64,000 nt of DNA from a virus. Location: positions 32,001-96,000 of the IMG/VR virus record IMGVR_UViG_3300047472_000155, one strand, 5' to 3'. Under the pieces are notes generated by a model that ran no database searches, was not told where the DNA came from, and worked only from the letters and a program-made list of their open reading frames with translations. Made by a program: the position numbers and the translations under genes. Numbering within the stretch: position 1 is the stretch's first letter; every line of letters starts with the position of its first letter. Shown here piece by piece: positions 14,785 to 34,422 of the stretch.

Positions 14785-15086
14785 GTCAATTATTTTTTGG
14801 CAAGAAAGAAAGAGAAGCTATACTTGTTCACATCCCCTATCGCCTTGTTAGTGGAATGGATACTCTTGTCTATGTTCATAATTCAAACACAAACGAAATG
14901 GATCACATTTCATATGATGATATTGTTGAAGCTGGAGTGGAACACATTGTTCGTGAAGCACTTCGGATTAAACCTCAAATAGTTGAGCCTAAAGAAATTC
15001 AAAAACCTAAAAGGCAAAATGCCACTCCCGCCTTTTATGTTGAAGATCATGTTTCTACTTCTCGCGGCAGAAATCAGTCCAGGTAA
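14772..15086 (+). CDS. Hypothetical protein
   Basis: 104-aa ORF overlapping the previous stop. Confidence 0.55.
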   Translation: MGFLGQLFFGKKEREAILVHIPYRLVSGMDTLVYVHNSNTNEMDHISYDDIVEAGVEHIVREALRIKPQIVEPKEIQKPKRQNATPAFYVEDHVSTSRGRNQSR

Positions 15087-15170
15087 ACGTCACCTCTTAA
15101 AATCGTCTGAGAAGAAGTCTGGTATTGGTAGGTTGTATTCTATCCCTACATGTGAAGCATTTATACCCCT

Positions 15171-15222
15171 CACATCATCATACGCTCACGCCCCTCTCTA
15201 GAGCGTGTGATGATGTGTTTTT
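15171..15222 (+). terminator. Long-stem intrinsic terminator
   Basis: CACATCATCATACGCTC..GAGCGTGTGATGATGTG followed by TTTTT. Confidence 0.7.
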
Positions 15223-15275
15223 CATTCTCTATACAAAATAAACGAATAAAAAATAAAATTAATATCTACTTGGTA

Positions 15276-15304
15276 TTGACAATCTTCTCTTGATGTCGTA
15301 TAAT
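15276..15304 (+). promoter_or_regulatory. Sigma-A promoter of the recombinase gene
   Basis: TTGACA-N17-TATAAT. Confidence 0.85.
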
Positions 15305-15341
15305 TAAAAATAATACGACATCGGCTAAAGGAGAGATTTAT

Positions 15342-16436
15342 ATGGGTAAAGCATTGCTTGATAATATAGTGATTTTGAATGAACGTAATAAGGGTAAAAA
15401 AGAATTTAAAAACGTAGGTAAAGATATATATAACTTTCTTTACCGCATCAACATTGGACATGGAACAGAACTTCAAGGCACATCAGAAGCTTACGAAAGA
15501 GATATCAAACGTTTCTTTCAATTGATGTGGGGCATTAAAGATTTGAATAAACTTGAAATTGAAGATTTGTATATCCTTCCATCAGATATAGAAAAATTTC
15601 AGACATATCTTGTTAATATGGGATTTAAAAGCAATACCGTAGATCGCAATATTAATGCAGTAAGATCGTTGTATAATTATTTTGAAGAAAATGAGTATCG
15701 TTATAGATATGAAGATGAATGGGTATATATTTCTTCGAGAGTATTTAAAGGTATTAAAAGAGTTGATATTGACGATAAGTCAAGTTATGGATCATTTACT
15801 TTCGAGGAAATGTCCGAAATGATTGAACTTGCAAAAACTCTTGACAATGGAGAAACTAAGTCATTGGCTATTGAATTGGCAAGTATCACTTCCTTTCGCC
15901 TTGAAGCTATTGCAAATATGGAAAGAGGTGATTTTTTCTTCAAAAACAACACATGGGTTGCACGTACTTATGACAAAGGAAAAGAGAATATAAAAGCTAT
16001 TCGTACAGATTTATATGAAAGACTTATTGCTAATGCCGATGAAGGTGACAGAGAAAAACTATTTGATTGCACATCAAGAACATTGCAGCGTACAGTTGAT
16101 ACTTTAATCAATATGATGAAACTTGATAAAGCTGAAAGAAATCTTACCTTCCACTCCATCAAGAAATACGGTATCAATGAAGTTGCTATGATGACAAAAG
16201 GTGATATGAAAGCTATTTCACTTCAAGGTAATCATGCATCATTTGAAACTACTATGAAGTATTACCTTGCATACACGGAAGACTATTCTAAAATGCCTTG
16301 CTTAATGATTGGTCAACCAATTGATACATCTCCCATTCAAGAGCTAGATAGAGAGCAGTTGTTAAATCTATTCATGGAGGCTAGTCGGTCCACTCAATAC
16401 GAATTGCTCCACTTGTTGAATACGCAATCCGAATAA
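15342..16436 (+). CDS. Tyrosine recombinase/integrase-family protein
   Basis: Core-binding region (NTVDR.I.AVRSLYNY); catalytic pattern SFR, DKGK, FHSIKK, GNH, KYY (HxxK instead of HxxR). Confidence 0.88.
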   Translation: MGKALLDNIVILNERNKGKKEFKNVGKDIYNFLYRINIGHGTELQGTSEAYERDIKRFFQLMWGIKDLNKLEIEDLYILPSDIEKFQTYLVNMGFKSNTVDRNINAVRSLYNYFEENEYRYRYEDEWVYISSRVFKGIKRVDIDDKSSYGSFTFEEMSEMIELAKTLDNGETKSLAIELASITSFRLEAIANMERGDFFFKNNTWVARTYDKGKENIKAIRTDLYERLIANADEGDREKLFDCTSRTLQRTVDTLINMMKLDKAERNLTFHSIKKYGINEVAMMTKGDMKAISLQGNHASFETTMKYYLAYTEDYSKMPCLMIGQPIDTSPIQELDREQLLNLFMEASRSTQYELLHLLNTQSE

Positions 16437-16477
16437 AAACAAAGACCCCTCCGAATGGAGGGATTATTTTCATTTTC

Positions 16478-16615
16478 CGTCAGGTTACATTTTTTTCGCT
16501 GAACTAATATATAATTACTTACTCTGTTAATCTGTTATATCTTAGTTACAGTATTATATATTTACAGGATGACTGTAATACTATATTAGTTCAGCGAAAC
16601 TTTTGTAACCTGTCG
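16478..16615. repeat. Long inverted-repeat element, copy 1 (putative origin or recombination site)
   Basis: ~34-bp arms CG(T/A)CAGGTTACA-N6-TCGCTGAACTAATATA around an AT-rich core; second copy at 55881-55996. Confidence 0.85.
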
Positions 16616-16628
16616 GGAAAAAAATTTC

Positions 16629-17384
16629 TTATTTTGCAATCGAATATCCATTTGCTATGCCGTTTTCTCCGGCAAATTTCTGTCTATCTATGTTTACTAA
16701 TCCACTACGTTGTAGTTCATCAACATACTTTCTAAAGGTCGGTTCTGACATCAATACCTCATCCTTAATGCTTCTCGATGGTATTTTACATACCTTTAAT
16801 CCTCCTTGTTTGTATTTGATGTATCCGTAAATATAAAATGCATTGACTCCCAAGTCTTTGTTGTTCATGCATTGTTCAAATATTTCATAATTTATTTTGT
16901 GCGTGTTTTCTACTTCATAAAAGGTTCCATCTAGGATTTTGTCCTTTTCTGAGTCGGGATTTCTAAAAAAACTTTTCACAGGGTACTTGACTTTATAGTT
17001 CAAATCCTGTATAATAGTCTTATAGCCAGTTAATGTCCTGTGATCATCTATTAACATAAATTCAACAAACCCATTCTCCATTGTCCATGATATCGGATAA
17101 CTTGACGTTGTACGTGTATAACCCATTGTATCAAGTATCCCATTGTTCTTTATAATATAATCTATCTTCTTTTCGACTGGAGATTTTTGAAGTTTCTGCT
17201 TGATTGTTGCTTGAGTAATCTTCTCGTCTTTGTACCATTCACAATATCTATATAGGTACGTTACATAATAGTAATATGAGTACGTAAATGCATTGTGCTT
17301 CGCTGATGATATGTTTTCACGTATATCTTTGAATATCTCATTTGGAACGTAAATGTGATCTTTTATTTTTTGTTTAGTCTTCAC
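16629..17384 (-). CDS. Putative replication initiator / wHTH DNA-binding protein
   Basis: YVPNEIF N-terminus; C-terminal wHTH (AFYIYGYIK..IKDEVLMSEPTFRKYVDELQRSGLV); abuts the inverted-repeat element. Confidence 0.55.
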   Translation of the reverse strand: MKTKQKIKDHIYVPNEIFKDIRENISSAKHNAFTYSYYYYVTYLYRYCEWYKDEKITQATIKQKLQKSPVEKKIDYIIKNNGILDTMGYTRTTSSYPISWTMENGFVEFMLIDDHRTLTGYKTIIQDLNYKVKYPVKSFFRNPDSEKDKILDGTFYEVENTHKINYEIFEQCMNNKDLGVNAFYIYGYIKYKQGGLKVCKIPSRSIKDEVLMSEPTFRKYVDELQRSGLVNIDRQKFAGENGIANGYSIAK

Positions 17385-20489: not shown

Positions 20490-21041
20490 TTATCCAGCGC
20501 TTCTTTTTATATCTACCTCTACATTTCCAGTTGAAGATACAGTATGAGTTACTTCCTTTACTTCATCCTCTGCAAACATCTTTCGCGCTTTCTCCATTAC
20601 CTTTAAAATGTACGTGTAACTCTCTTCTAACTCTTTACGCTCATTTGCCATGTCACGCATGATTCGTGATTGTTCTGTCAATCTCTTGTCTTGATCAATT
20701 ACTTTTTGATGTAACGTTTTATTTTGCTTTTGTAAATTTTTTAGAAGATCAACAAATCCATCCATTGTTTCTCTTACTTTATTGGCAAGTGTGAAAGATG
20801 TGTTAGATGTATATGCTTCTAATGTAGACTCATCTAGTCCGGTTTCACTTTCCGACATTAAATGTTTGTACCATCGGTTACGACACATATAGAATGTGAT
20901 GCCTAATTCGTTTGCCGCTTCTTTAAATGCTCTTGTTGCACTATTAGGATACTTGGTAACAAGCCTTCTCAGAACCGAATCTTCCTCATCTGTCCAATCG
21001 TGATTAGCACTTTTTTTCTTTATTTCCACAGAAGAGATCAC
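20490..21041 (-). CDS. RsfA-like (SANT/Myb) transcriptional regulator with coiled coil
   Basis: WTDEEDSVL..AFKEAANELG.T..C..RW followed by a heptad region. Confidence 0.75.
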   Translation of the reverse strand: MISSVEIKKKSANHDWTDEEDSVLRRLVTKYPNSATRAFKEAANELGITFYMCRNRWYKHLMSESETGLDESTLEAYTSNTSFTLANKVRETMDGFVDLLKNLQKQNKTLHQKVIDQDKRLTEQSRIMRDMANERKELEESYTYILKVMEKARKMFAEDEVKEVTHTVSSTGNVEVDIKRSAG

Positions 21042-21608
21042 CCATCCCTATATAGTATTTGTTAGCCATGTTTACTAATTATAGGATACACAACTTGAAC
21101 ATATTAGTCAAGCTATTGGTAAACGGCTAAATGTGTCTAGGTATAATATGGGAAATGGTAGGTAAATATTTGGAACAGGTTTCAGAACACAGGGTACTCT
21201 ATATATCGAAAAGCTATAAAAATGTTATAACTAAGCCCCCCTACCTAGTGTGCATATAATAGATGACATTACATGGTTTTATTTTTTAACGTAGAGTAGG
21301 GTGAAAAGTAGATGTCTGAACATCTTGACGATTTTTTATGTGAAAATAATAGCATGGATATCTAATTGAAATGTGAGTACATATAAGTGGTTTACCGTTA
21401 AAGAGCAAAGTCGTCTGCGTTAAAAATAAAACGTGCGAAAATAGGGTATGTTGAGATGTGAGTATGTTTGTAGTTGTTCAGTAGTGTAATGTGATGGGAT
21501 TATAGTGTGATACAAATTGAATGGAAATAAAGTAATCGAGCGCAATTGCAGTGCCCAGGGGTATATGGAAATTGAATCCAGATCTGCATGTTATAACCTA
21601 CCCCCGGC

Positions 21609-21636
21609 ATGTCGTGGAATTAACGTTCCGCGACAT
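21609..21636. repeat. GC-rich palindrome next to a C-tract, near a strand-composition switch
   Basis: ATGTCGTGGAA-TTAACG-TTCCGCGACAT directly after TGTTATAACCTACCCCCGG. Confidence 0.6.
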
Positions 21637-21820
21637 TAATCGAGAATATACATTATATTGTGTAAAATACCATATTTTGGCTAATATTTGATAATTGCTA
21701 AATAATGGATATTTTTCATTTTTTTAAAAAATTTTAAAATTTTAAAAATTGCATATATTCAAGCTCACACAACGGAGTGATATAACACCAATCGCATGAT
21801 GCAAGACACCCTCACCACTA

Positions 21821-22298
21821 TGCACAACTATATTGCACACAATCTAATTTTATATTATTCAATTTATTACTATATTATCATCAACAATTCACATTGCAAC
21901 AATTCACATTCCCACAATATACCCAACATGCACATATATCTCACTCAATCAAATAATGCACAATATCCATGCAATACACACAATCTAATCGTCAATATGT
22001 ATACAATCCATACGATAGAGCTAGACATCAATCATAGAAATCAATCATAGACATCAATACGAGATAATCATACATAATTCAATCTAACACCATTTAATTG
22101 TATAAAATAGATGATGCACACATACATATCATGCACAATTCAATCACTCAATATTTAATTGTGCACAATTGAATCAATACCAATATAATTAATAGCCATA
22201 TAATGATATTCAATGTAATCAACTCCGATTATATTTCTAAAAACCGTAAATGCGTATATATGCAATACTATGTCAATATACCTAATATATTATGCACA
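21821..22298. repeat. Eight TGCACA hexamers, including the palindrome AATTGTGCACAATT
   Basis: TGCACA at 21821, 21834, 21929, 21957, 22115, 22132, 22162, 22293. Confidence 0.65.
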
Positions 22299-22325
22299 CA
22301 TAGGCATATATTGTATGATCTAGGA

Positions 22326-23983
22326 TGTAAGCGTTTAATTTTAAGGTATAAGGCGTATATCATCAATACCTAACAATACCATTACCCTATAGGATAGAGT
22401 GTCTTATACGCAATCCTACCATGACATATATTATGTATATTCTTACAATATAATACATATGATATACTCACTATGATATTATGTATATGTATATATCTAT
22501 ATGTATATATCTATGTGTTAATATCATATTGATAGTAATGATATGATACATACAACATGTATCTATCTATGTGATACTATCTATATGATAATATGTATGT
22601 GTATGTATCTATATGTTACTATCTACATATACATATCATATTGTTATTATCATAATGTTAGTATCTATGTGGATATATGACGATACTTGCAACATGCGAG
22701 CAATATGATATCGACCTAGCATATAGCAACGTGATATATATAGTACATACATATGAGCACTCACACATATAAGATAAAGTCAATAGGGAACATATATACC
22801 CATCTATATGCGTTACAATGCATTGTAATGGGCAAGTTGTTTACTCATTGTTTATACATTGATTTAAAACGATAGAAAGCGCTTACTTGGGAAATAGTGC
22901 ACACCTACGCCATTTGCAAACGCTTACATATTAGAAATGGACAATTATTTCCCAAAACGCATGTATAAGTATTCATTATTAGTGTATATGAAAGCGGTTA
23001 AATGCATGATTATGCATAGAAGCATACGAATGTATGATAAAATGAGGATAAAGTGCTAATATATCAATTGATCTAAATAATGGATAAGTTTTTAATTTTC
23101 AATCTAATATTGATATATGTTTGACTTATTGCTGACTGAAAGTGCTTACATACATAAAATGTAAAATATGTATGTAATTAATATGAAAACGCTTACATTT
23201 TCGGATCGCAAGATATGTAAATAAATATATAAATTACTATAAAATGTATATTTTTATTATTTAAAAAAGTCAAGTAGTAAATTGATAATTATGTGAACAT
23301 TATGTGAACATGCAATTAATCAATTGGTATAATCATTGAGATATTCCGTATAGAGTAAATACACACAATTGATCCATAGAGGGTATTAGGGTTCCGTATT
23401 TTCAATTCCACGGCACAAGTAGTGTACTTGTTAGGGGTAGAATATAAAGCCTCTTAGAAGGGCAAATAAAGCGCTTACATTTGACATACATTTATGTGTG
23501 TTAAAGTGTAGTCAAATAGCAAAATGTATAAATATACATGATATACGTTGCGTTATTGATCCGCAATAATTACCGAACATTCAAAAAAGCCTTATGTATC
23601 AACGATCTGATTCGCTAACTTTCTGATAGCTTACATAATAAATCTGATTTATCGCACATATAAAAATTTTCTATTCCCTTATAGAATAAGGGTTTTAGGA
23701 CTTATGTAAAAATATGTTTATGCATACCCGAATATAATTGTGTCTAAAATATGTACGTTTATTCATTTAAATTTTAAAAACCTATTGACATTTAAAAATC
23801 ATTTGATCTAGCATTTGCAAAACACGAACATTCTGACCAACAGTGGCATAGTTTATGAGCTAAATCCGAACATTCGAGTATATAAAGCGCTTACAATAAA
23901 ATATCCTAAAAATATACGAACATAAATTCGTATATTGACATCTGAAATAATATGTGATTTTAATTAAAATGAAAGCGTTTTAT
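22326..23983. promoter_or_regulatory. Array of nine CcpA cre-like sites
   Basis: TGTAAGCGTTTAAT 22326, AGAAAGCGCTTACT 22874, TGCAAACGCTTACA 22915, TGAAAGCGGTTAAA 22989, TGAAAGTGCTTACA 23137, TGAAAACGCTTACA 23184, ATAAAGCGCTTACA 23466 and 23882, TGAAAGCGTTTTAT 23970; consensus TGWAANCGNTNWCA. Confidence 0.75.
22962..23538. promoter_or_regulatory. Three ARG-box-like palindromes (ArgR/AhrC)
   Basis: TGTATAAGTATTCA 22962, TGCATGATTATGCA 23003, TGTATAAATATACA 23525. Confidence 0.5.
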
Positions 23984-24015
23984 TGACAATATATGTAAAA
24001 AACATACGAACAAAT
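23568..24015 (+). promoter_or_regulatory. Five PurBox-like CGAACAWW motifs (PurR)
   Basis: CGAAC at 23574, 23825, 23867, 23917, 24007; AAAACACGAACATT at 23819-23832. Confidence 0.55.
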
Positions 24016-24056
24016 GGGAACAAATTGTGAATATTGTGTGTCATATCTTTATGCAC

Positions 24057-24086
24057 TTGACATGCAATCCTACTATGAAATAGTAT
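24057..24086 (+). promoter_or_regulatory. Sigma-A promoter for the large RNA / early region
   Basis: TTGACA-N18-TAGTAT; further TTGACA at 23481, 23785, 23935, 23983. Confidence 0.65.
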
Positions 24087-24094
24087 GGAGAAGC

Positions 24095-24802
24095 AAACAA
24101 GACAAAACACACCTAGAGCACGAATGAGTGACCGACATTAATAGGTCGCACACGAACGGACACAATGACGGATAAGCTACCGACACACGAATAAGCCTAG
24201 CTACTAGAATTTTAGTAACTAACTTATGGTAAGTGTTAGATAAAATGAGGGTGAATAGGTTGAACACGTTATGCAATGCTAACACGCCTATGAACTATGG
24301 CGAATGACCATAGAAGAAAGGGAATGGTGAGAAGCCCAAAGCGGCATGTATGCACGAAAGGTCATTCGATATGATAACCTAGACGCTCATACATTGATTG
24401 CATTTAATATCATTGGTTCCTTGACAATCTAACGGTTTATCGCATACCTAGACTACGCCGAAAGGCAATGTCAAAAGCGATACATTGTGTGAGGTCTATG
24501 TGCCTAGTAGTGTATAGGGTTAAGGGCAACAAAATGACGAAAGGTTAGTCAATGGTACGTGCATTATGAGCGTACATGATACACATGTAAGGCATTGCGT
24601 ACATGTGTATGGCATAAACTAATTTAGTAACGTTTTGGATACCATGAGAGTAATACATGAAGGACAATGCCATGGATAGCGTACTATCGTTAACTCACAA
24701 TGTAAAAGGAATAATCGTTGTTCAAGATAGTGCGAAATTCGTAGTATCTTGAACAACGTTGTAAGCAACTAATATAATGTAAGTTAGTTGTTTACAACGT
24801 TG
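24095..24802 (+). ncRNA. Candidate large structured RNA (~600-700 nt)
   Basis: No ORF; higher GC; nested long-range helices CGAATGACC/GGTCATTCG, ACGCTCATA/TATGAGCGT, CATTGATTG/TAGTCAATG, CCTTGAC/GTTAAGG, TATCGC/GCGATA; GCC-GAAA-GGC tetraloop. Confidence 0.78.
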
Positions 24803-24828
24803 TACATACAACGAATAAAAACATTGGA

Positions 24829-25494
24829 GTGATTGAAATGCATTTGCCACAACTTAAAGTGTTAGACCGTAAAACGATTATCAATGTACCAATTCTATGC
24901 GGCACAAAAGAATTTGACCAATATTCGGAAATTAACTCTCTTACGGCATCGGGTGAAACGTTTAAAAGTACTAGTTCAACATCAAGCAAATATAATCTTG
25001 CTTCGGTACACGCTTGGGTCAATATTGACCAATTACAAGCCGATGGAATTATTACTAAATTAGGTTTCGGAAGATGGGAAACCGAATTGTCGGAAAAGAA
25101 CGGTATACATTACACAATGAAAATTGATGAAACCGGAGAGGGAAAATATGTAAAAGGTAAGATCACTTACAATATTGTAGCGGTTGAAGTTAATGGTAAA
25201 AAATACACCGTCAAAAACGATCACAAATTGCCAAATGGCACGGAAATGCAAACAAGTTTCGAAATGACTTATAATGGTAAAAGTGCTAAAAATTCCACAT
25301 TGTTCGGATTCTTGCGCCGCATTATCTACAATGGATTACTTCAATTTGACAAGGTTGATCATCTTGAATTGATGGTAGCTAAACCTAAAACACCATCAAA
25401 ACCTAAAGCCAAACCTAAAGCGGCAAGCGTAGATATTCCAAAAGGCAAGGGTGCGGACAAACAAGAGAGTGCACAAAAAGCCGCAAATGAATGA
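24829..25494 (+). CDS. Hypothetical early protein with Lys/Pro/Ala-rich tail
   Basis: 221-aa ORF, GGAG RBS, first ORF after the large RNA. Confidence 0.75.
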   Translation: MIEMHLPQLKVLDRKTIINVPILCGTKEFDQYSEINSLTASGETFKSTSSTSSKYNLASVHAWVNIDQLQADGIITKLGFGRWETELSEKNGIHYTMKIDETGEGKYVKGKITYNIVAVEVNGKKYTVKNDHKLPNGTEMQTSFEMTYNGKSAKNSTLFGFLRRIIYNGLLQFDKVDHLELMVAKPKTPSKPKAKPKAASVDIPKGKGADKQESAQKAANE

Positions 25495-25607
25495 TGCGGC
25501 TTTTTGATTTTGAAACTAAATTTAAAAATGATAGTAGCTAACATTTAGTAAGCACTTAAAATGTTAGCTATTTTTGATTTTTAAATTAAAGAAAGGAATG
25601 GTAAAAT

Positions 25608-25784
25608 ATGGCAACTATGACAATGGAACAAAAGTATTACAACATAAAGCAAGAATTGAAAAATGCCAATAACAACCTTGATTTCAAGGCAATTAAACGA
25701 TTACAAAATAAACTTACCAAATGGCAACAAGCGTATGGAGCGTATGCACCTATAACACAAACAAACTTTCATAAATACGATTAA
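25608..25784 (+). CDS. Small hypothetical protein (58 aa, not in ORF track)
   Basis: AAGGA RBS; MATMTMEQKYYNIKQELK.. Confidence 0.6.
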   Translation: MATMTMEQKYYNIKQELKNANNNLDFKAIKRLQNKLTKWQQAYGAYAPITQTNFHKYD

Positions 25785-25789
25785 AAGGA

Positions 25790-26065
25790 ATGATTATAAT
25801 GATGATGGAAATTTTAGAAAAAGATAAGACAGAAGTAAGATCAGTAATTGGTAAGCGGCTACGTACAATGATTAAGACATTGCCACAACATGTAAAAGCA
25901 GATATTTTTAATATGATACATAACCAATCAACAAAGGATTATGCATGTTATGGTAAGTCATATGTTGAATTACAATTTGTCAATCATGAGTTATCAGCAA
26001 TCACATTAGATGCAATCAACATCAAGGATAACACATCCAAACGCTTCATGCTTTTAATATCATAA
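25790..26065 (+). CDS. Hypothetical protein
   Basis: ORF with AAGGA RBS. Confidence 0.6.
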   Translation: MIIMMMEILEKDKTEVRSVIGKRLRTMIKTLPQHVKADIFNMIHNQSTKDYACYGKSYVELQFVNHELSAITLDAINIKDNTSKRFMLLIS

Positions 26066-26173
26066 ATATCAGATAAAATTCAATTCAGTGAATGATAGTT
26101 CCCTATAACACACATAAGTATAGGGAACAATTGATTTATTGAATTACAAATAATACAAAAAGGATGATAAAAT

Positions 26174-26353
26174 ATGGAAAAATTGAATCATTATAGTTTT
26201 GAAGTTATTTTTATGGATGGAGAAGAAAAATGGATATCAAATAATAATGTAAGCATGAATGAGGCAATGATACAAATAATTAGAACAGAAGAAAAAGATA
26301 TCAGAAAAATAACAATAATGGAAATGAGTACTAATACTAATAAAGTAATTTGA
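26174..26353 (+). CDS. Small hypothetical protein (59 aa, not in ORF track)
   Basis: AAGGA RBS; MEKLNHYSFEVIFMDGEE.. Confidence 0.6.
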   Translation: MEKLNHYSFEVIFMDGEEKWISNNNVSMNEAMIQIIRTEEKDIRKITIMEMSTNTNKVI

Positions 26354-26430
26354 AAAGATAGGGAGATACAATATTTTGAATTGTATCTCTTAATTGTTTT
26401 CAAATTTAACACTTAAAGGGTGATAACACA

Positions 26431-26697
26431 ATGTCAAGTGTAAAACAAGAGAAATTCAAGGAAGTCAAGGCGCAACATGAGCTATTGAAAAAAATTAGCT
26501 TCACATCAACTCTGATAAAAGAAATTAATGATTCCTTGTTTGCTTCTAATCAAGCTTTTGTGGAATTTTCTGGTGACGATGTAAACTATCAGACAATGAT
26601 CAGCATTAAGTTAGTGGAACGTTTGTTCTTTGAACAAGGTGCAAACGTAGTGAGCATGTATGGATCAAAGAAATTCATTTTGTCAATAACAATATAA
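26431..26697 (+). CDS. Hypothetical protein
   Basis: 88-aa ORF with RBS. Confidence 0.65.
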   Translation: MSSVKQEKFKEVKAQHELLKKISFTSTLIKEINDSLFASNQAFVEFSGDDVNYQTMISIKLVERLFFEQGANVVSMYGSKKFILSITI

Positions 26698-26719
26698 CAC
26701 TGAGAAGGAGATGTAACAC

Positions 26720-27037
26720 ATGAGTCTATACGCTGTTACTTTAAGATTAAAACCTGTTCAAATTATTGAAGCATCAAACAGATCAGAAGCAATTGAAATT
26801 GTTCGCAGAAAATTTTTAAATGCCTTTATTACAAAAGTAGAAAAGACGCAAAAACAGAAACTTTGGTGTGACCGTATTGTTATTGTAACGCCAAATAACA
26901 CAAGGTATTTGCCTTTTGAAGTTACATATCATGAATATTGTGACGGAAATGCTCTTATCGAAGCTCAAATAAAATACGGTAAAATTGCTACATGTTCAAT
27001 CAAAAAACCAGTTGAAGCTCTGGCAAATGCAATATAA
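26720..27037 (+). CDS. Hypothetical protein
   Basis: 105-aa ORF, AAGGAG RBS. Confidence 0.65.
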   Translation: MSLYAVTLRLKPVQIIEASNRSEAIEIVRRKFLNAFITKVEKTQKQKLWCDRIVIVTPNNTRYLPFEVTYHEYCDGNALIEAQIKYGKIATCSIKKPVEALANAI

Positions 27038-27136
27038 AATGTTTTAGCAACCATATCAGTGATTTAAGTCACATCAGATTTAAATCACTTAATGGTTTTT
27101 AAAACCAGCAATAACACCATGACAGGAGGAACCCAC

Positions 27137-27349
27137 ATGAAAAAGAATCAAATCAGAAACTTATTTGATGTTGCTGTAGAAATGAGACTATCAGCCCAAT
27201 ATTTTGCGGTAATCCTATTCCAGTTAAACAAAGAATTAGCAGTATGGATCAGAAAACAATGGATTGTAGGACGTATAACACAATCGGAATACACGGACAG
27301 ATTGATGGATTATATAACATTGGAAGTTGAATTTATCGGCGTCAGTTAG
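27137..27349 (+). CDS. Hypothetical protein
   Basis: AGGAGG RBS before MKKNQ. Confidence 0.65.
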   Translation: MKKNQIRNLFDVAVEMRLSAQYFAVILFQLNKELAVWIRKQWIVGRITQSEYTDRLMDYITLEVEFIGVS

Positions 27350-27442
27350 TAAATGACAATGACATTAAGCATAACACGCCTATATATAAGAGGCTTAATG
27401 TTATTAGTGAGTTACTAACAAAACTAAAAAGGATGATTAAAT

Positions 27443-27733
27443 ATGGAAATCAAAAAGAATCATGATGTAATTAAAGCGTTTTTGATGGGTTATAGGGAAG
27501 GTCAGGCTAATCATCTTAAAATTGAAGAAAGAAAAGACCGAACAGCTTTATTGAACTTTGATACAGTAATTGCAGAAATATTTAGTCATGGAAATGAGAT
27601 TCACATCAATAAAAGCAATTATGGAAGAAGTACTACTCGGATTCAGAATATATTGATTAGAGAAGCCACGGAAGGTAAATGCAACGTTGTTTATCATTTC
27701 GATATTGACAAGCATAGCAAGATATTAGTTTGA
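27443..27733 (+). CDS. Hypothetical phage protein
   Basis: 96-aa ORF with RBS. Confidence 0.65.
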   Translation: MEIKKNHDVIKAFLMGYREGQANHLKIEERKDRTALLNFDTVIAEIFSHGNEIHINKSNYGRSTTRIQNILIREATEGKCNVVYHFDIDKHSKILV

Positions 27734-27960
27734 TGATCGACTCAGTAAATGATAGTCTTCTATATAACACCATATTATATAGAAGACAATTGATTCACTG
27801 AATCAATAAAAAATATACATAAAGGAGAGAATACCTATGACTCCAAGTAAACTTGCTGTATTAAAAAGTCAATGGGACAGAAAGCAACAAATGAAAGATA
27901 AAACTATTGTAGGCGCTCTGATTTTGAAATAGTTTTATAAACGAAAGGATGAATATAACA

Positions 27961-28293
27961 ATGAGCAATTACGTGGACAACAGACGGAAATACTTGGATA
28001 AAGTTGTAGAATTTCAGAATGAAGTTGAAAAGATCATGTTTGAAATTGATCTTATCAACTTGGAAAAAGTAAAATATATGAACATGAGAGATCAGACAAT
28101 TCACTTCCGTCTGACAATTTGCAAAGCATTTATTCATGAAGTATTAAGGTTGAATCAAATTCTTGAGCCTAAGATGAAAGAGCTTCAGGAAATGTGGTAC
28201 AAATACGATACAATGCGGTATCAACCGAATAAACAAGAGCGCCTCAGTGCAATGATTGAGGGGATGTATTCGCCAGAAAGAAATATTGGATAA
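27961..28293 (+). CDS. Hypothetical protein
   Basis: AAGGA RBS before MSNYVD. Confidence 0.65.
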   Translation: MSNYVDNRRKYLDKVVEFQNEVEKIMFEIDLINLEKVKYMNMRDQTIHFRLTICKAFIHEVLRLNQILEPKMKELQEMWYKYDTMRYQPNKQERLSAMIEGMYSPERNIG

Positions 28294-28388
28294 CTCAGTG
28301 ATTCATTAAGCCCTTTATATATTATAGAGGGCTTAAATGTTTTACTGAATAATACACTTTTTAAAGGAAAGAGAGAGGATGATTAAAT

Positions 28389-28790
28389 ATGTTATCGTTC
28401 ACTAGTAAAGTCGTAGGAAAAGCAATGATTGAGAAAGAGGTCACAGAAAAAGACATTGAAACAATTATCGTCAATGGTTTTGAAGGTGGCATTAAATATT
28501 GGGCAGGATTGGATGTATATTATTCTGAGGATGTATTCAATTGTCCCAAAGATGAACCGTGGTCAACATGGTGCACAAAGCTGTTGATTGAAGGTAAGTC
28601 AGTTAAATTGTATGATGTTGAAGGTACAGAAGATGACAACAATTGGATTTTAACACTAGACAAAATTATCAATGGATATAAATTAAATTGCATTAAGCGT
28701 CCACACGATTCAGATTTAGAAAATGGAGACGCTACGACAAGTGATTCAATCATTCAGTATGCATTGTTTAATGAAATTGTATTTGGATAA
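28389..28790 (+). CDS. Conserved phage hypothetical protein
   Basis: EGGIKYW..DA..DSIIQYALFNEIVFG motif. Confidence 0.7.
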   Translation: MLSFTSKVVGKAMIEKEVTEKDIETIIVNGFEGGIKYWAGLDVYYSEDVFNCPKDEPWSTWCTKLLIEGKSVKLYDVEGTEDDNNWILTLDKIINGYKLNCIKRPHDSDLENGDATTSDSIIQYALFNEIVFG

Positions 28791-28806
28791 GAGAGGATGA
28801 ATAACA

Positions 28807-29004
28807 GTGAATAAAAAAGCGGCAATCGCTATTTTTAAAGGTGAATATGCACAATTTTTAATTGACAAGAAGAACGATATTCCTGCTAAACAGCAAGCAT
28901 GGACAGAATTTGTTGATATGTTGTGCAAGAATGGAGACATAAAACAGAAACAATTTGATACATGGGACAATCCAAGCTTTGCAAAAGCCAAGAAGAGAGG
29001 GTGA
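28807..29004 (+). CDS. Small phage hypothetical protein
   Basis: AW..FVD.LCKNGDI..QF.TW.NP motif. Confidence 0.65.
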   Translation: MNKKAAIAIFKGEYAQFLIDKKNDIPAKQQAWTEFVDMLCKNGDIKQKQFDTWDNPSFAKAKKRG

Positions 29005-29010
29005 TAACAA

Positions 29011-29217
29011 ATGGGAATGATTCAGTCACATCATGAAATAAATGTTTCTTTAAATGGCAGGCATTTGTTTGCAACAGCAGAAAGAAGTTGTGTATCTACA
29101 AGTGAGTTGAATGAAATCTTAGAAGTGTTCATCAAGAAATTTCCAAAATCAGAAGGTTATAGCATATCTTATACAAAGGTAAAATGTGAAGGATCATCAA
29201 AAGAAGTAAGAAATTAA
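29011..29217 (+). CDS. Small phage hypothetical protein
   Basis: INVSLNGRHLFAT..KFP..EGY motif. Confidence 0.65.
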   Translation: MGMIQSHHEINVSLNGRHLFATAERSCVSTSELNEILEVFIKKFPKSEGYSISYTKVKCEGSSKEVRN

Positions 29218-29309
29218 TTCAGTAAATGATAGTTCTCTATATGACAATAGATTATATAGGGAACAATTGATTTATTGAAGTACATACTAATGAAAATGAG
29301 GCGGTTAAT

Positions 29310-29594
29310 ATGGCACACCTTGTAAGCAAGAATCAGTATGAAGACATCAAGAATCAGAAATATGTATTGGTAAATTTTGATTTTATTGGAAGAAGAACAA
29401 TGCATTACAGCGGATTGTCAATAATAGGGATAATGGAGGCAATGCAGAAACAGGTTAGTTTGAGTGTGGTATCTACAGTGTTTACAGAAGAAGAGATTAA
29501 AATGTTTAATATTGACTTGACAAAAAGAGATATTGAGTATTTCAGAAAGTTTAAACAAGATATAGAAAAACTGAAAAGAGTTTCGAATCAGTAA
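29310..29594 (+). CDS. Hypothetical protein
   Basis: 94-aa ORF, GAGG RBS. Confidence 0.6.
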   Translation: MAHLVSKNQYEDIKNQKYVLVNFDFIGRRTMHYSGLSIIGIMEAMQKQVSLSVVSTVFTEEEIKMFNIDLTKRDIEYFRKFKQDIEKLKRVSNQ

Positions 29595-29666
29595 ATGATA
29601 TCACCTTATATAATACATATTATGTAAGGTGCAATTGATTAACTGATTTAGAATAAAACAAAAGGG

Positions 29667-30713
29667 ATGATAAATATGTTATTTCAAACAATTACAAGAC
29701 CAGTTGTATACAAGAAATTCGGTGATGTCAATCCAATCGAACATGATGGAGGCTTTTACACAGAAACATCTAAAGGCGAATTTGAAATTATTCATATCAC
29801 ACCTGATGAAGAACATGAAAATTTCGGATGGTGGAATGTGGTATCTGTGGATACCACAGACGATTCTTGGATTGATGTGAAAAGCATTTGTTCATTTGCC
29901 GACATTGGTCCAGATAATGTTGATACTATTGATTTTGCACTTGCCTGCATTAATTATTATGGAATAGAAAATTTTGGTGGCAATCAAGCACAAGAATCAG
30001 CGATTAGTCATCGTGAAATTGAAAAATTATATAACACAATCGTATCAGAAAATTTCATTGAAGATGATGAAAATTTAAAACATCGTATTATCAATTATTT
30101 TGATGTATGGGGCAATTCTAAAGACGGTTATGAAGTTAATAACATGTGTGAAGAAGGAGTAATAACATTGCACATGAACGCAACGAATGAAGATGTTCTG
30201 AAAGCGCTTAAGAAATTCGGATTCTTCAAAAAACATGTGCGAATGAACATGGTTCAGTTTGATGACTCATTAATAGATATGTGGGAAATTAACGATTCAA
30301 AAGGCAAACCTATCTGTCGTGTGGAACCAATTATTGAAGAACCAGATTACAAACACACTATAACATATGATAGTGAGCATGGTGAACGTGTTCAGAAACA
30401 CTTTGAAACAAAGTCAGAAGTATATAAGTTTCTTGACACGTTGTCTAATGATTTAAATGATGTATGGACAGACTATAAAGAAGACGAATCCACAAAAGAG
30501 GTGTTACAAATGGAAAAGGATAATATCAAAATCGAAGGTCACAGAGGAACATGGTATATAATTGATGAAGCTAAATACAATGGTGAAGCGGTATATTTGC
30601 TTGAACATGAAGCATATGGAGATACCGCTGCTTGTTTAATTGTTCGTGGAGACCTATCCATTGTTTTAGATGATGTATGGAATGGGTTTGATGATTTAAA
30701 TGATTTAGAGTAG
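29667..30713 (+). CDS. Multi-domain polyvalent-type protein, C-terminal LPD18-like domain
   Basis: IKIEGHRGTWYIIDE..LLEHEAYGD.AACLIV..DDVWNGFDDL; central DVWGN.KDGYEVN motif. Confidence 0.65.
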   Translation: MINMLFQTITRPVVYKKFGDVNPIEHDGGFYTETSKGEFEIIHITPDEEHENFGWWNVVSVDTTDDSWIDVKSICSFADIGPDNVDTIDFALACINYYGIENFGGNQAQESAISHREIEKLYNTIVSENFIEDDENLKHRIINYFDVWGNSKDGYEVNNMCEEGVITLHMNATNEDVLKALKKFGFFKKHVRMNMVQFDDSLIDMWEINDSKGKPICRVEPIIEEPDYKHTITYDSEHGERVQKHFETKSEVYKFLDTLSNDLNDVWTDYKEDESTKEVLQMEKDNIKIEGHRGTWYIIDEAKYNGEAVYLLEHEAYGDTAACLIVRGDLSIVLDDVWNGFDDLNDLE

Positions 30714-30797
30714 TTTCAGAATTGATTATGCCTTATATAACAACATATTATATAAGGCATTAATGAGTTATTGAAACTCAAGAAAGGATGATACAAT

Positions 30798-31187
30798 ATG
30801 GATAACAAAACTAAACAGTTAATTTTTGAAGGTGCAGGATGGGAAATTGCTGAACATAATGGTGTAGGTAATTGTCGTATCAGAACAAGATTGACAAATA
30901 AAGAAGGTAAATTTATTTACTTAGAAATGTCAGGCAATGATATTTCTAATTCCAGACGCCACCCATACAAAAAGGAATTTCCGTTTATTGGATATGTTCA
31001 GCATTGCTTTGAAAGTGATGATAACGAACATAGTGAATACAGAAAACTAGAAAATGTTCCTTTTCATTATTCCAAAAGTTCCATTTTAAGTATGGTAAAT
31101 GAAAAATTGAATTGCGATTATACTGAATTGGTTGTTATCAATGACAATTCAGTGAGAGTACATGATACAAAAAAACCATTGTGTTAA
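30798..31187 (+). CDS. Hypothetical protein
   Basis: LIFEGAG..VGNCRIRT motif. Confidence 0.65.
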   Translation: MDNKTKQLIFEGAGWEIAEHNGVGNCRIRTRLTNKEGKFIYLEMSGNDISNSRRHPYKKEFPFIGYVQHCFESDDNEHSEYRKLENVPFHYSKSSILSMVNEKLNCDYTELVVINDNSVRVHDTKKPLC

Positions 31188-31222
31188 AATAAATTAAACT
31201 TAATAATAAGGGATGATATCAT

Positions 31223-31888
31223 ATGACAAAACAAAAGTTGGTACATGGAAACAAGAGAACGATGGAATATATAGGTGAAGATAATTTTAGCAATCCTATA
31301 TATAGATGTGTTGAAAATGACTCTTTGTGGAAAGATATAGCACTTGGAGAGAGCGAGATTCCACAATTGTATGATTGTGGAAATGAAATTGATGGCGATC
31401 CAGGATTTCCTATAAGACCTGAATTGGAATTACACTTTATTAGTAAGCCGCCATCAAAAGAAAATAAATTTAATTACATGATGCTCAGTAGAATGCAAAG
31501 CGATTGCGAATACTATCTTAATTATGGAAATCGTAGTAAAAACAGATTGTATTATGAAGATGAACAGAGACACATTGATGAAATGAGGAAATTGCATAAC
31601 GCATTTCCGGAAGACGGAAAGCCAGAATGGTTAACAATGGAGCAAATAGAGCAATATGAAGTGCAAATGGTTTCCGTAAAATGTCCATCCTGTGGTGAGT
31701 TATATAGTATATCAGAATGGAATAATAACACATTTGAGATTGTTTCGAACTTAAATAATTCAGACGATCCCATTACTTCATATCACAAAAGAAAAGAAGG
31801 AACGCTTTATCGCTGTCCCAATCAAAATTGTGAAGATGAAGTTATTACAGATTCAAATCTTTGTTTGAAGGTTCAAGATTCAGAATAA
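31223..31888 (+). CDS. LPD11-domain protein with C-terminal Zn ribbon
   Basis: YMMLSRMQSDCEYYL.YG..KPEWLTMEQI; CPSC..CPNQNC. Confidence 0.75.
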   Translation: MTKQKLVHGNKRTMEYIGEDNFSNPIYRCVENDSLWKDIALGESEIPQLYDCGNEIDGDPGFPIRPELELHFISKPPSKENKFNYMMLSRMQSDCEYYLNYGNRSKNRLYYEDEQRHIDEMRKLHNAFPEDGKPEWLTMEQIEQYEVQMVSVKCPSCGELYSISEWNNNTFEIVSNLNNSDDPITSYHKRKEGTLYRCPNQNCEDEVITDSNLCLKVQDSE

Positions 31889-31975
31889 TATACTATGCTC
31901 TTTACTACATATAGTAGAGGGCATAAATACTTTTCTGAATAAGAAAAGAATTCAATAACAAAAGGATGATATAAC

Positions 31976-32344
31976 ATGACAAACCAAACTAAAAAATCAT
32001 TTGAATTCAATGGAAATTTTCCTGTGGTCGTAGAAATTGGTGAAAATAAAAATTTTATTCAAAAGAAAGAAATGACAGAATTTGAGTTGCGTGGTGTATA
32101 TTCATTTCTTGATGAATATCTAACAGAATTCTATGATGACGGAGAGAAATATGATTCAGCAACGGATCTTGCTTTGGGATATGTTGGAGGTGTTATCGCT
32201 TGCACAACGCAAACAGGACTTCCGGGAGCGCCACAAGAAGTTAAAGATTATCAGCTTCAATATTTTGCACTCACAGAGAACAATGTCTTGCTTGCTGTTG
32301 TTGAAGACGAGAACAACAAAAGTTATTATATTCGTATTAACTAA
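31976..32344 (+). CDS. Hypothetical protein
   Basis: 122-aa ORF with RBS. Confidence 0.65.
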   Translation: MTNQTKKSFEFNGNFPVVVEIGENKNFIQKKEMTEFELRGVYSFLDEYLTEFYDDGEKYDSATDLALGYVGGVIACTTQTGLPGAPQEVKDYQLQYFALTENNVLLAVVEDENNKSYYIRIN

Positions 32345-32359
32345 AGGAGAGAATAAAAA

Positions 32360-32740
32360 ATGGAGACAACTAGTAAAAAATTTATATATCAAATTCAGAA
32401 TCATATTTATGATCGTTTGTCGGAAGACTTGACAACGGAATTAAGTGAACAGTTGAAAAATGCAATGGATGAATTCAATGATTGGTATTCTATACATGAA
32501 CGTCAGGTGATTCCAGATAAATATGATGCATTCAAAAAATGGCTATGGGGTATTCCATCTTGTTTGTCAGTAGAATATGTCTATTACAATATAATTGGCA
32601 CTCTTAAAGATTGGTTTTATGAGTGTGGAGAAAAGTATATTGAAACAGATGATCAAACGATAGATGCTGATCTTTACATGAACCTAATAACACGAGAATT
32701 TTTTAACATGTATAATAATCATTGCACTCAAGCAAAATAA
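32360..32740 (+). CDS. Hypothetical protein
   Basis: 126-aa ORF, AAGGAG RBS. Confidence 0.65.
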   Translation: METTSKKFIYQIQNHIYDRLSEDLTTELSEQLKNAMDEFNDWYSIHERQVIPDKYDAFKKWLWGIPSCLSVEYVYYNIIGTLKDWFYECGEKYIETDDQTIDADLYMNLITREFFNMYNNHCTQAK

Positions 32741-32834
32741 TCAGAACTTTATCATGTCCTTTACGTATAACACATAGAGGACATGAATACTTTTCTGACC
32801 GAAAAGTAAATTCATTCTAAAGGATTGATTTATA

Positions 32835-33197
32835 GTGAATAATACAATGAAAGAAATGAAAGAAATGTTCAGAAATAGAATTGCAAAACAAATGTCGGAC
32901 TCAGTTGAGAAAATAAGTCTTGGTCAATTGTCTCCTCAAGTTCAAGAAAGTTTATATACGCTGAGTAGTGCAATTAGGGCAGAATATGTGGTAAAATCAA
33001 TTGAATTTGAAATAATGATGTTAAATTCTGCTGGTTTTAATGAAAACAATTACAACATGTCTGATATTATGTGGGAAATGATTCAAAGAGAGAGTGATTT
33101 CCATGAACACAGAAAGAAGTTTGAAAGAGTCTCAGGTTTTAAGTATATGGAGTTTAATAATCAAGAGTTGTACAATTTAATGCATAATATTCAATAA
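32835..33197 (+). CDS. Hypothetical protein
   Basis: 120-aa ORF with RBS. Confidence 0.6.
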   Translation: MNNTMKEMKEMFRNRIAKQMSDSVEKISLGQLSPQVQESLYTLSSAIRAEYVVKSIEFEIMMLNSAGFNENNYNMSDIMWEMIQRESDFHEHRKKFERVSGFKYMEFNNQELYNLMHNIQ

Positions 33198-33210
33198 AAG
33201 GAGAGGAAAA

Positions 33211-33600
33211 ATGAAAAAAATAAATGTAATGTTACAAACAAGCTTTGGAAAAATTCAGATTGGAGAAATTAGCTTAAATCCAAGTATAATAGGAAGTGTT
33301 TCAGAAGAATATGTTGTAGAACAATGGCTTGAAAGTTTAAATGTAAATATCGAACAAATTGCCAGAGTGTGGACACAAGCAGAACATCGTGTTTATTTAT
33401 ATGGAATTCATGGCAAAGCAAAAGACAGTGAAATTTATGGTAATTATGAATTCTATTACGTTTCAAGCGGTATGTTATATGATAAGCAAGAGTACTTCTC
33501 AGAAATTGAAGTGGGAGAATATTTGGGAGATTTAACAACGCTTGATCAGATAACCGCATTAGATACTTTCTTTGTTAAGGTAAAAGAAGAATTACAATAA
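33211..33600 (+). CDS. Hypothetical protein
   Basis: 129-aa ORF with RBS. Confidence 0.65.
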   Translation: MKKINVMLQTSFGKIQIGEISLNPSIIGSVSEEYVVEQWLESLNVNIEQIARVWTQAEHRVYLYGIHGKAKDSEIYGNYEFYYVSSGMLYDKQEYFSEIEVGEYLGDLTTLDQITALDTFFVKVKEELQ

Positions 33601-33620
33601 TATAAAGGGGGTAGATAACA

Positions 33621-33965
33621 ATGAATAATAACAATCTTAAAAAAGTAATTTCAGAACTTGACAAAAGAACAGAATTCTTCAAAGATGCATTTGAAGAATA
33701 CAATATACCTCCAAAGATTAAAAATGCCTCTGAGTCCATTTGCATCAAGTTTAATATATATGGTATTTGTGATCCAATGTACATTGTAAATAGCATAGCT
33801 TATGAATTGGGTATAGGTGACGGATGCGGCAACTTCAATGACAATGAACCAGATTTATCAAAGCTTGATTATATTGCTGATAGACTTAAATTTTCGTATG
33901 GATGTAATATTCATGAAAAAGATACATTGCTAAGAATACTTGTAAAAAATATTGTTATGGAATAG
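33621..33965 (+). CDS. Hypothetical protein
   Basis: 114-aa ORF with RBS. Confidence 0.65.
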   Translation: MNNNNLKKVISELDKRTEFFKDAFEEYNIPPKIKNASESICIKFNIYGICDPMYIVNSIAYELGIGDGCGNFNDNEPDLSKLDYIADRLKFSYGCNIHEKDTLLRILVKNIVME

Positions 33966-34422
33966 TTCAGAATAATATACCATACCTTTTATATAACACT
34001 ATATAGAAGGTATAAATGCTCTTCTGAGCAAGAAAGGAGTGTATTACAATGACATCTAAGAAGTCAAAACAAAGAACACGTAATCAATTTACTATCTTAG
34101 CCAAATCAAAGGAGACTGACGAGGTTTATAAGAAAGTATTTTACAAATATATGGAAGTTGAAAAATGGGCAGAAAAACATAACATGGAAGTATTTAAGGT
34201 TGATATCAAGAAAGTAAAGGTGGAGGACTGACAAATGAATTATAAACAATACATTTACCATAACACATTGACTGATGAGGTTGTTGGCTTTAATGCAAAC
34301 AGCTTAAGACAATCTAGGATCAGAATGACAAGATTGAGCAGAGTTCATTTTGTTGGCACTAAGGCAATTGATTGGAAGTTTGTTAAAACAGATAGAAAAA
34401 TAAAGAAATGGGAGATGTCAAA

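What the first reader, a model, noticed from the sequence alone, without database searches (positions are those of the whole stretch)
24095..24802. Large, highly paired RNA at the head of the early region
Seen: directly after TTGACA-N18-TAGTAT the composition changes and nested long-range helices appear: ACGCTCATA(24382)/TATGAGCGT(24566), CATTGATTG/TAGTCAATG, CCTTGAC/GTTAAGG, TATCGC/GCGATA around GCC-GAAA-GGC, CGAATGACC/GGTCATTCG, ATACACATGTA/TACATGTGTAT. The loop GGCATTG of the last hairpin is complementary to CAATGCC at 24665, a possible pseudoknot. G-U pairs favour the plus strand. Known: Bacillota phages carry large ornate RNAs (ROOL, GOLLD) of similar size. I could not assign this one, and saw no clear group I or II intron core. 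Inference: an early-expressed large ncRNA, possibly controlled by the upstream operator array.
Basis: partly seen in the sequence, partly recalled or inferred. Interest (0 to 1): 0.78.

Follow-up and report, generated by a model that had tools for sequence, protein, structure and literature searches.

The report
Undescribed large leader RNA in phage
Just after a promoter and just before the first gene of a ~98-kb same-strand gene block, this uncultured large phage encodes a roughly 700-base, intricately folded non-coding RNA that matches no known RNA family; its fold is well supported by related phages but its job is unknown.

Summary
Window 24093-24813 (+) encodes a conserved, non-coding, highly structured RNA. 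Three other versions were found in related uncultured phages, plus two divergent syntenic analogues.

On an unedited MAFFT alignment, my 128-pair model has 90.8% standard pairs (31-45% when partners are slid). 33 pairs change on both sides (15.2 +/- 2.5 in shuffles, 0/500). G-U pairs fix the plus strand.

The fold has two domains closed by long-range helices. In one analogue both loops differ yet remain complementary.

Its four long-range helices do not covary and have broken columns in the second clade.

No Rfam family matches the window or the homologues. No terminator or conserved second promoter separates the RNA from the first early gene, so it is probably the leader of the rightward early transcript.

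Function is inferred only. My first choice is a cis-acting antitermination or stabilising module, like conAn2, put or EAR. The rival is a processed, possibly self-associating RNA like ROOL, GOLLD or pRNA. The family is small. The scan noted other, unrelated structured early-operon leaders on other DNA.

The parts
24057..24086 (+). Host-type promoter (-35 at 24057-24062, -10 at 24081-24086); predicted start near 24093
   Evidence: Consensus scan, (10/12 match; such matches are not enriched in this AT-rich region). The same promoter position and near-identical sequence occur in L005, L003, L007 and L128. The start site is inferred, not measured.
24093..24813 (+). Whole structured RNA (leader), from the predicted start to the last conserved pairing segment
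   Evidence: It is the most conserved stretch of the locus: 91-97% identity to L005 over 24200-24500, against 73-87% in the adjoining gene.
24116..24419 (+). 5' domain, closed by 24116-24119/24416-24419 and 24123-24127/24410-24414. It holds the hairpin 24129-24148, the helix pair 24182-24195/24223-24237 around the invariant block 24219-24245, and the hairpin 24295-24313.
   Evidence: The closing helix has one compensatory column (U-A, U-G, C-G). The 5' domain is the less well resolved half.
24268..24283 (+). Hairpin A; its loop 24273-24279 is one side of the loop-loop contact
   Evidence: All four stem pairs change on both sides among 5 sequences while the loop stays fixed in the four core sequences. 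Ranks among the longest loop-loop complements in a blind scan of hairpin loops.
24438..24482 (+). Hairpin between the domains (stem 24438-24443/24477-24482), with an optional GAAA-capped tip
   Evidence: Five of 6 pairs change on both sides across 6 sequences, with 36/36 cells standard. Also seen on the unedited alignment. The tip is missing in L003 and L007.
24483..24702 (+). 3' domain. It is closed by 24483-24489/24696-24702. A stacked arm follows: 24494-24500/24671-24677, 24510-24515/24653-24658, 24530-24536/24631-24637 and 24542-24549/24618-24625. The arm ends in a three-way junction with the hairpins 24555-24575 and 24579-24610. A side hairpin lies at 24678-24691.
   Evidence: The helix 24510-24515/24653-24658 differs in all six sequences and is fully paired in each. 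The sub-block model R1 gives 87.8% paired, against 23-50% when partners are slid, and 14 compensatory pairs against 6.0 +/- 1.7.
24579..24610 (+). Hairpin B; its loop 24592-24598 is the other side of the loop-loop contact
   Evidence: Seven stem pairs change on both sides. The loop is invariant in the four core sequences and complementary to 24273-24279. In L128 both loops are changed and still complementary.
24716..24813 (+). 3' border: two long near-perfect hairpins (24716-24758 and 24753-24803) that share six bases, plus a segment at 24808-24813 that can pair with either neighbour
   Evidence: z -9.3, -8.3 and -10.2. One compensatory pair each. No T tract follows. A comparable choice of alternative pairings, read by eye and not scored, exists in L128 with a different sequence.
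24826..25494 (+). Ribosome-binding site (24826-24829) and first early gene (ATG 24838; 218 aa)
   Evidence: This gene family follows the RNA or its analogue in all six phage lineages. It has no Pfam or PHROG family and no fold match.

Best explanation
This is an undescribed, roughly 700-nt, two-domain structured RNA. It forms the 5' leader of the phage's rightward early transcript.

Shown. The fold is conserved: about 18 helices, two long-range domain closures, a three-way junction, and a 7-bp contact between the hairpin loops at 24273-24279 and 24592-24598. The RNA is on the plus strand. It does not code for protein. It runs without a terminator into the first gene of a ~98-kb block of same-strand genes.

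Inferred. It acts in cis on the transcription complex or transcript that produced it. The most likely role is an RNA-based read-through (processive antitermination) or transcript-protecting module for the long, hairpin-punctuated early region, in the manner of conAn2 of pLS20, put of HK022 or EAR of Bacillus. The two long perfect hairpins at 24716-24803 mark its 3' border and may be cut by a double-strand-specific RNase.

I put the structural part at about 0.9 and the functional part at about 0.3-0.35.
For: Structure:
- On the unedited MAFFT alignment A3, 128 pairs are 90.8% standard, against 83.5 +/- 0.9 in shuffles and 31-45% when partners are slid.
- 33 pairs change on both sides, against 15.2 +/- 2.5 (0/500).
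- In the curated table, cognate arms are 98.8% standard and arms swapped between phages are 77%.
- Strand: 6 non-standard cells on + and 44 on -.
- Loop-loop contact: the loops are invariant and complementary in four sequences. In L128 three positions are changed on both sides. The chance of finding that complement in an upstream hairpin loop of L128 is 40/20000.
- Non-coding.

Leader status:
- No terminator-like site lies between 24090 and the gene.
- The promoter is conserved.
- The same gene family lies 25-40 nt downstream in six lineages.

Context:
- The RNA heads genome 56,829-154,835, almost all + strand genes.
- Long intergenic hairpins with weak T tails are enriched downstream: 16 against 6.0 +/- 2.7.

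Precedent: conAn2 is a 260-600-nt RNA that confers antitermination at the start of very long operons of Gram-positive mobile elements, with poor sequence conservation (PMC8191782).
Against:
- The RNA is larger and more elaborate than put, EAR or most conAn2 elements.
- Its sequence is more conserved than the adjoining gene. That suits a trans-acting or catalytic RNA as well as a leader.
- No ConAn1-like protein is present, and the gene order is the reverse of conAn.
- Most downstream hairpins lack proper U tracts, so they may be processing sites rather than terminators.
- Only four alignable sequences exist, in two clades, so some helices in the 5' domain rest on little variation.
- The two divergent analogues L128 and L130 are not detected by the covariance model or by BLAST. 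Their use as evidence rests on synteny and on arms picked by hand.
Confidence: 0.4

Rival explanations
1. A free-standing, trans-acting or architectural RNA. The leader is cut out at the two terminal hairpins and accumulates as a stable ~650-nt RNA. It works like the orphan ornate phage RNAs (ROOL, GOLLD) or phi29 pRNA. The two complementary loops may pair between molecules, head to tail, to build dimers or rings.
For: Its size, its domain architecture and its conservation above that of the adjoining gene are typical of large functional RNAs. Complementary loops within one molecule that co-vary between relatives resemble the pattern reported for intermolecular pRNA contacts (PMC4201828, PMC2241910). 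ROOL and GOLLD assemble through kissing loops (10.1101/2024.12.08.627333). The long perfect duplexes at 24716-24803 are plausible RNase III substrates.
Against: No terminator, no own 3' end signal and strict linkage to one downstream gene. No Rfam match to ROOL, GOLLD or pRNA. It is not near the tRNA genes, where such RNAs often sit; the tRNA cluster is about 19 kb away. Whether the loops pair within or between molecules cannot be computed here.
Confidence: 0.3
2. An RNA-based immunity or timing switch, of the kind known from P4 (CI RNA), P1/P7 (c4 RNA) and N15. In those, a piece processed from the leader pairs with complementary sites in the same or an incoming transcript and blocks expression of the early or antirepressor operon. 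The complementary loops would be the specificity determinant.
For: It lies in the leader of the first early operon of a probably temperate, plasmid-like phage: a tubulin-like partition gene and a recombinase are nearby. A Myb-type DNA-binding gene ends the leftward arm. The loop pair changes as a matched set between lineages, as heteroimmune P1/P7 sites do (own knowledge, not checked in a paper here). Alternative pairings exist at the 3' border.
Against: No terminator or sequestered ribosome-binding site that such pairing could control. The RNA is almost ten times larger than those immunity RNAs. No match to the Rfam C4 family or any other.
Confidence: 0.1
3. A ribozyme or a divergent member of a known class that Rfam models miss, for example an intron-like or self-cleaving RNA.
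For: Large conserved tertiary architecture, with internal loops at 24537-24541/24626-24630 that look like a loop E motif by eye.
Against: No hit to any of 4227 families at E<=10 in the window, and none in the homologues at the looser thresholds run on them. No flanking exons, because the RNA begins at a promoter and ends before a start codon. No recognisable intron core.
Confidence: 0.05
4. Not an RNA: a DNA-level element such as an operator array or origin, or chance structure in a gene-free region.
For: It sits at the main strand-switch of the genome, next to repeated boxes. The minus strand also folds well.
Against: Compensatory changes keep pairing. 43 G-U cells would be mismatches on the other strand or in DNA cruciforms. 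Conservation follows helices, not boxes.
Confidence: 0.03

Closest known systems
conAn2 RNA of the bipartite conAn antitermination system (pLS20 and other Gram-positive conjugative plasmids; PMC8191782)
   Same: A large (260-600 nt) structured RNA at the head of a very long same-strand operon of a Bacillota mobile element. It lies next to a small orphan protein gene, is closed by long-range pairing, and shows very poor sequence conservation between systems.
   Different: The order is RNA then protein, not protein then RNA. The 218-aa protein shows no similarity to ConAn1. The host element is a phage, not a plasmid. Antitermination is untested.
HK022 put RNAs and the Bacillus EAR element (RNA-only processive antiterminators; PMC9378689)
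   Same: Cis-acting folded RNA transcribed just after an early promoter, ahead of genes separated by hairpins.
   Different: Those are about 70-120 nt. This one is about 700 nt with two domains. There is no Rfam match.
ROOL and GOLLD (large ornate RNAs of phages and prophages of Bacillota; 10.1101/2024.12.08.627333)
   Same: Size class, phage origin, elaborate multi-helix fold, kissing loops, unknown function.
   Different: No match to their covariance models. It is not next to tRNA genes and is fused to an mRNA as a leader. Oligomerisation is unknown.
phi29-family prohead RNA (pRNA; PMC4201828, PMC5066667)
   Same: A phage RNA with a three-way junction and two mutually complementary loops. 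Here the matched loops change together in one relative.
   Different: pRNA is about 120-174 nt, lies at a genome end and serves the packaging motor. There is no sequence or model match here.
P4 CI RNA / P1 c4 RNA immunity systems
   Same: Leader-encoded RNA with short complementary sites in the same transcript, in plasmid-type or satellite prophages.
   Different: Those are 77-80 nt and act on terminators or on translation. No such target is visible here.

Membership tests
ROOL (Rfam) / GOLLD (Rfam) | Match to the family covariance model | tested here: not met
   No hit at gathering score in the window or in five homologous loci. No hit at E<=10 over 23600-25000.
ROOL / GOLLD | Frequent position beside tRNA genes in phages or prophages | tested here: not met
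   The eight tRNA genes lie at 2219-5585 on the other strand, about 19 kb away.
Group I / group II introns | Match to intron core models, and insertion within a gene with flanking exons | tested here: not met
   No Rfam hit. The RNA starts at a promoter and ends before a start codon. No ORF is interrupted.
conAn (conAn1 protein + conAn2 RNA) | Adjacent ConAn1 homologue | tested here: not met
   BLASTP finds no alignment. The profile comparison gives probability 0.6%.
conAn | Large RNA element at the start of a very long operon of a Gram-positive mobile element | tested here: met
   About 700 nt at the head of a ~98-kb + strand gene block. The phage is akin to Bacillus and Geobacillus phages.
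conAn / put / EAR | Read-through of terminators in cis | not testable with these tools
   Needs a reporter assay.
phi29 pRNA | Match to the Rfam pRNA model; role in the packaging motor | tested here: not met
   No Rfam hit. The locus is in the early region, not at a genome end.
C4 / CI-type immunity RNAs | Match to the Rfam C4 family; a terminator or translation target controlled by the pairing | tested here: not met
   No Rfam hit. No terminator-like site and a free ribosome-binding site.

The most novel reading that the evidence does not exclude
This is a new class of large phage RNA whose two matched loops pair between molecules rather than within one. Either the RNA self-assembles into dimers or closed rings, as pRNA, ROOL and GOLLD do, or a processed piece from a resident phage captures the nascent leader of an incoming one. 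In the second case the loop pair acts as a lineage-specific recognition code.
Probability: 0.2. Interest if true: 0.85.

Novelty: new variant of a known kind. Interest (0 to 1): 0.62.

Why it matters
RNAs of 600 nt and more with conserved tertiary contacts are rare in bacteria and phages, and most of the known ones still have no function. This one has a defined genetic position: straight after a promoter and in front of a ~98-kb gene block. That makes hypotheses testable with simple reporters.

If it proves to be an antitermination module, it would extend RNA-based control of very long operons from Gram-positive plasmids to large phages. If it self-associates, it adds a new natural RNA assembly.

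Two things limit its weight. Only four alignable sequences and two analogues are known, all from uncultured phages. No expression data exist.

Tried and rejected
- BLAST of the stretch against 50,697 phage records and against plasmids found no match.
- A short-query hit in Tsamsa-like phages at 541-569 is an AT-rich chance match.
- Exact-pattern scans gave nothing new. Viral contigs returned only the one known relative. The first metagenome scan found nothing. The second used too loose a pattern; its 118 hits were screened by BLAST and by eye and are unrelated. The one hit in species genomes lies inside a coding gene of a Balneolaceae MAG.
- Protein-guided searches gave six lineages and no more.
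- The covariance model R1 (160 positions) finds the four core sequences at E 1e-23 to 1e-36. It does not detect L128 or L130, even with filters off. There is one copy in the genome.
- The downstream protein gave no lead: no Pfam or PHROG family, a usable model (pLDDT 75), and no fold match (Foldseek E>0.08; VIA Z<=4.5).
- A protein-coding reading was rejected.
- An internal promoter at 24749-24778 was rejected because its -10 is not conserved in L003 and L007.
- mafft-xinsi and mafft-qinsi were unavailable, so structural alignment was done by anchors and by hand.

Full report
SETTING. The window is bases 32,001-96,000 of a 166,838-bp virus record rated complete. Its RecD-like helicase is only 38-44% identical to those of Geobacillus virus E3 and the Tsamsa-like Bacillus phages, so the phage has no close cultured relative. 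The finding lies at the right end of the largest gene-free region of the genome (window 21042-24828). Leftward genes end before that region. A block of almost exclusively + strand genes then runs from genome 56,829 to 154,835, about 98 kb.

THE OBSERVATION. G+C jumps to 40-42% from a 25-30% background. The stretch folds far better than shuffled copies on both strands (z -5.45 and -5.81). The + strand has 16-23 stops in every frame and no ORF above 31 aa. Indels between homologues are mostly not multiples of three. Rfam gives nothing at gathering score. At E<=10 it gives only miRNA-like noise on the two terminal hairpins.

HOMOLOGUES. Nucleotide searches of phage and plasmid records found nothing. 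The gene just downstream led to one IMG/VR contig (L003). Exact look-up of its protein relatives led to three Logan contigs (L005 = L006, and L007). That gives four distinct, alignable sequences in two clades.

A HMMER search of 1.8 billion representatives added three remote protein relatives. Two sit in phage contigs with the same layout: promoter, roughly 750-800 nt of G+C-richer gene-free sequence, then the gene (L128 and L130). The third is in a Chengkuizengella genome and has no such upstream region.

L128 and L130 fold as strongly as the window (z -5.79 and -5.71). They share no significant nucleotide similarity with the core four, and my covariance model does not detect them. I therefore treat them as syntenic analogues and probable distant homologues, not as proven family members.

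Against L005, the RNA is the best conserved part of the locus: 91-97% over 24200-24500, against 73-87% in the gene.

STRUCTURE. I anchored the sequences on invariant blocks and compared independent folds. From these I derived a model and tested it in two ways.

First, I placed it on the unedited MAFFT alignment A3. There, 128 pairs are 90.8% standard (shuffles 83.5 +/- 0.9; partners slid by 1-3 columns 31-45%). 33 pairs change on both sides (15.2 +/- 2.5; 0 of 500 shuffles reach it).

Second, I built a coordinate table of homologous arms. There, 480 of 486 cells are standard, and 39 of 122 columns change on both sides within the core four. Pairing the 5' arm of one phage with the 3' arm of another drops standard pairs from 98.8% to 77%. 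Read on the minus strand, the same pairs give 44 mismatches instead of 6, which fixes the polarity.

A 160-position model of the three-way-junction block gives the same picture: 87.8% against 23-50%, and 14 against 6.0 +/- 1.7 compensatory pairs.

ARCHITECTURE. After an A/C-rich single-stranded start comes a 5' domain (24116-24419), closed by a bipartite helix. It contains an optional hairpin, a helix pair around the invariant block 24219-24245, hairpin A (24268-24283) and further hairpins.

A stem at 24438-24482 follows. It covaries strongly, with a different sequence in all five distinct versions.

The 3' domain (24483-24702) is closed by 24483-24489/24696-24702. A long stacked arm of four helices leads to a three-way junction that carries hairpin B (24579-24610). 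The helix 24510-24515/24653-24658 is different in all six sequences and perfectly paired in each.

The 5' domain is less certain than the 3' domain, because alignment between the two clades is poor there.

THE LOOP-LOOP CONTACT. Hairpins A and B have covarying stems and invariant 7-nt loops (GCAAUGC and GCAUUGC) that are exact complements in all four core sequences. A blind scan of all hairpin-loop pairs ranks this pair among the longest complements in each sequence.

In L128 the hairpin at the position of B, just before the conserved junction strand, has a different loop. One upstream hairpin loop carries its exact complement. That amounts to three base pairs changed on both sides. In 20,000 dinucleotide shuffles of the L128 upstream sequence, the complement appeared anywhere in 379 and in a hairpin loop in 40. 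I found no convincing equivalent in L130.

It also overlaps a covarying helix.

Two are right: the stem 24438-24482 and hairpin B. Four long-range helices are not supported. They pair well only in the window and its close relative L005, show almost no compensatory change, and two of them compete with helices that do covary.

THE 3' BORDER. Two long near-perfect hairpins (24716-24758 and 24753-24803) share six bases. A third segment (24808-24813) can pair with either neighbour, so alternative folds exist. Neither hairpin is followed by a T tract, and no terminator-like site lies before the gene. The ribosome-binding site (24826-24829) is not sequestered. By eye, L128 has a comparable set of alternative pairings with an unrelated sequence.

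Similar long hairpins follow many early genes. Terminator-like hairpins with weak T tails are enriched downstream: 16 against 6.0 +/- 2.7.

WHAT IT IS. The evidence shows a conserved plus-strand RNA fold that is transcribed, if at all, together with the first early gene. Everything about function is inference.

I rank first a cis-acting role for the long early transcription unit. The arguments are the RNA's position and its strict linkage to the downstream gene. There is also a precedent in conAn2, a 260-600-nt, poorly conserved RNA that gives antitermination at the start of very long operons of Gram-positive plasmids (PMC8191782). This RNA is not a conAn member, because the neighbouring protein is unrelated to ConAn1.

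The main rival is a processed, trans-acting or self-associating RNA of the ROOL, GOLLD or pRNA kind. Its size, its high sequence conservation and the matched loops fit that reading equally well. An immunity-type switch, a ribozyme and a DNA element are less likely.

The downstream protein gives no help. It has no family, no fold match and a lysine-rich disordered tail.

EARLIER NOTES OF THE SCAN. The same stretch was noted once more from an overlapping window (e1-5670006). Notes on the upstream box array and on the hairpin family in the early genes supplied context that I partly checked. Follow-up reports on other genomes describe structured leaders at the head of phage early operons (e1-215806, e1-402826). 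They share no sequence words with this one, so this is a separate family.

LIMITS. There are only four alignable sequences in two clades. There are no expression data. Arms in L128 and L130 were chosen by hand. Whether the loops pair within or between molecules is open.

Noticed in passing
window 21800-22200: A roughly 400-nt tract almost free of G (GC skew down to -0.68), with many repeats of short CACAAT-like words. It lies inside the 3.8-kb gene-free region. It could be an origin-like or protein-binding array.
   Followed up: no
window 23785-24060: Four tandem TTGACA promoter-like sites, each followed by a CGAACA-type box. The same boxes are kept in L003, L005, L128 and L130, and also occur near the start of the Tsamsa record (L008 about 145 and 238). 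Similar ACGAA words recur in the single-stranded 5' part of the RNA.
   Followed up: partly
window 25500-35000: Long near-perfect hairpins (20 bp or more) after many early genes, without proper T tracts. Terminator-like sites are enriched (16 against 6.0 +/- 2.7). They could be RNase III-type processing sites or weak terminators.
   Followed up: partly
L007 782-842 and window 24070-24094 versus 24503-24525: The promoter -10 region and the RNA 5' end weakly resemble the flanks of the 3'-domain sub-block (model R1, 14.8 bits, E 1.1). This may be an internal duplication, a shared protein site, or chance.
   Followed up: no
window 24838-25494: The first early protein (218 aa) is beta-rich with a lysine-rich disordered tail. 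It has no Pfam or PHROG family and no PDB fold match. Only six protein clusters exist among 5.8 billion. One is a bacterial copy (Chengkuizengella axinellae) with a weak, sub-threshold HNH-type match in its C-terminal part.
   Followed up: partly
window 12767-17384 and 20490-21041: A tubulin/PhuZ-like gene, a tyrosine-recombinase-like gene and a Myb-type DNA-binding gene lie left of the gene-free region. This fits a temperate, possibly plasmid-like lifestyle.
   Followed up: no
genome 56,829-154,835 (window 24829 onward): About 150 genes in a row on the + strand, roughly 98 kb or 59% of the genome, start right after this RNA.
   Followed up: partly
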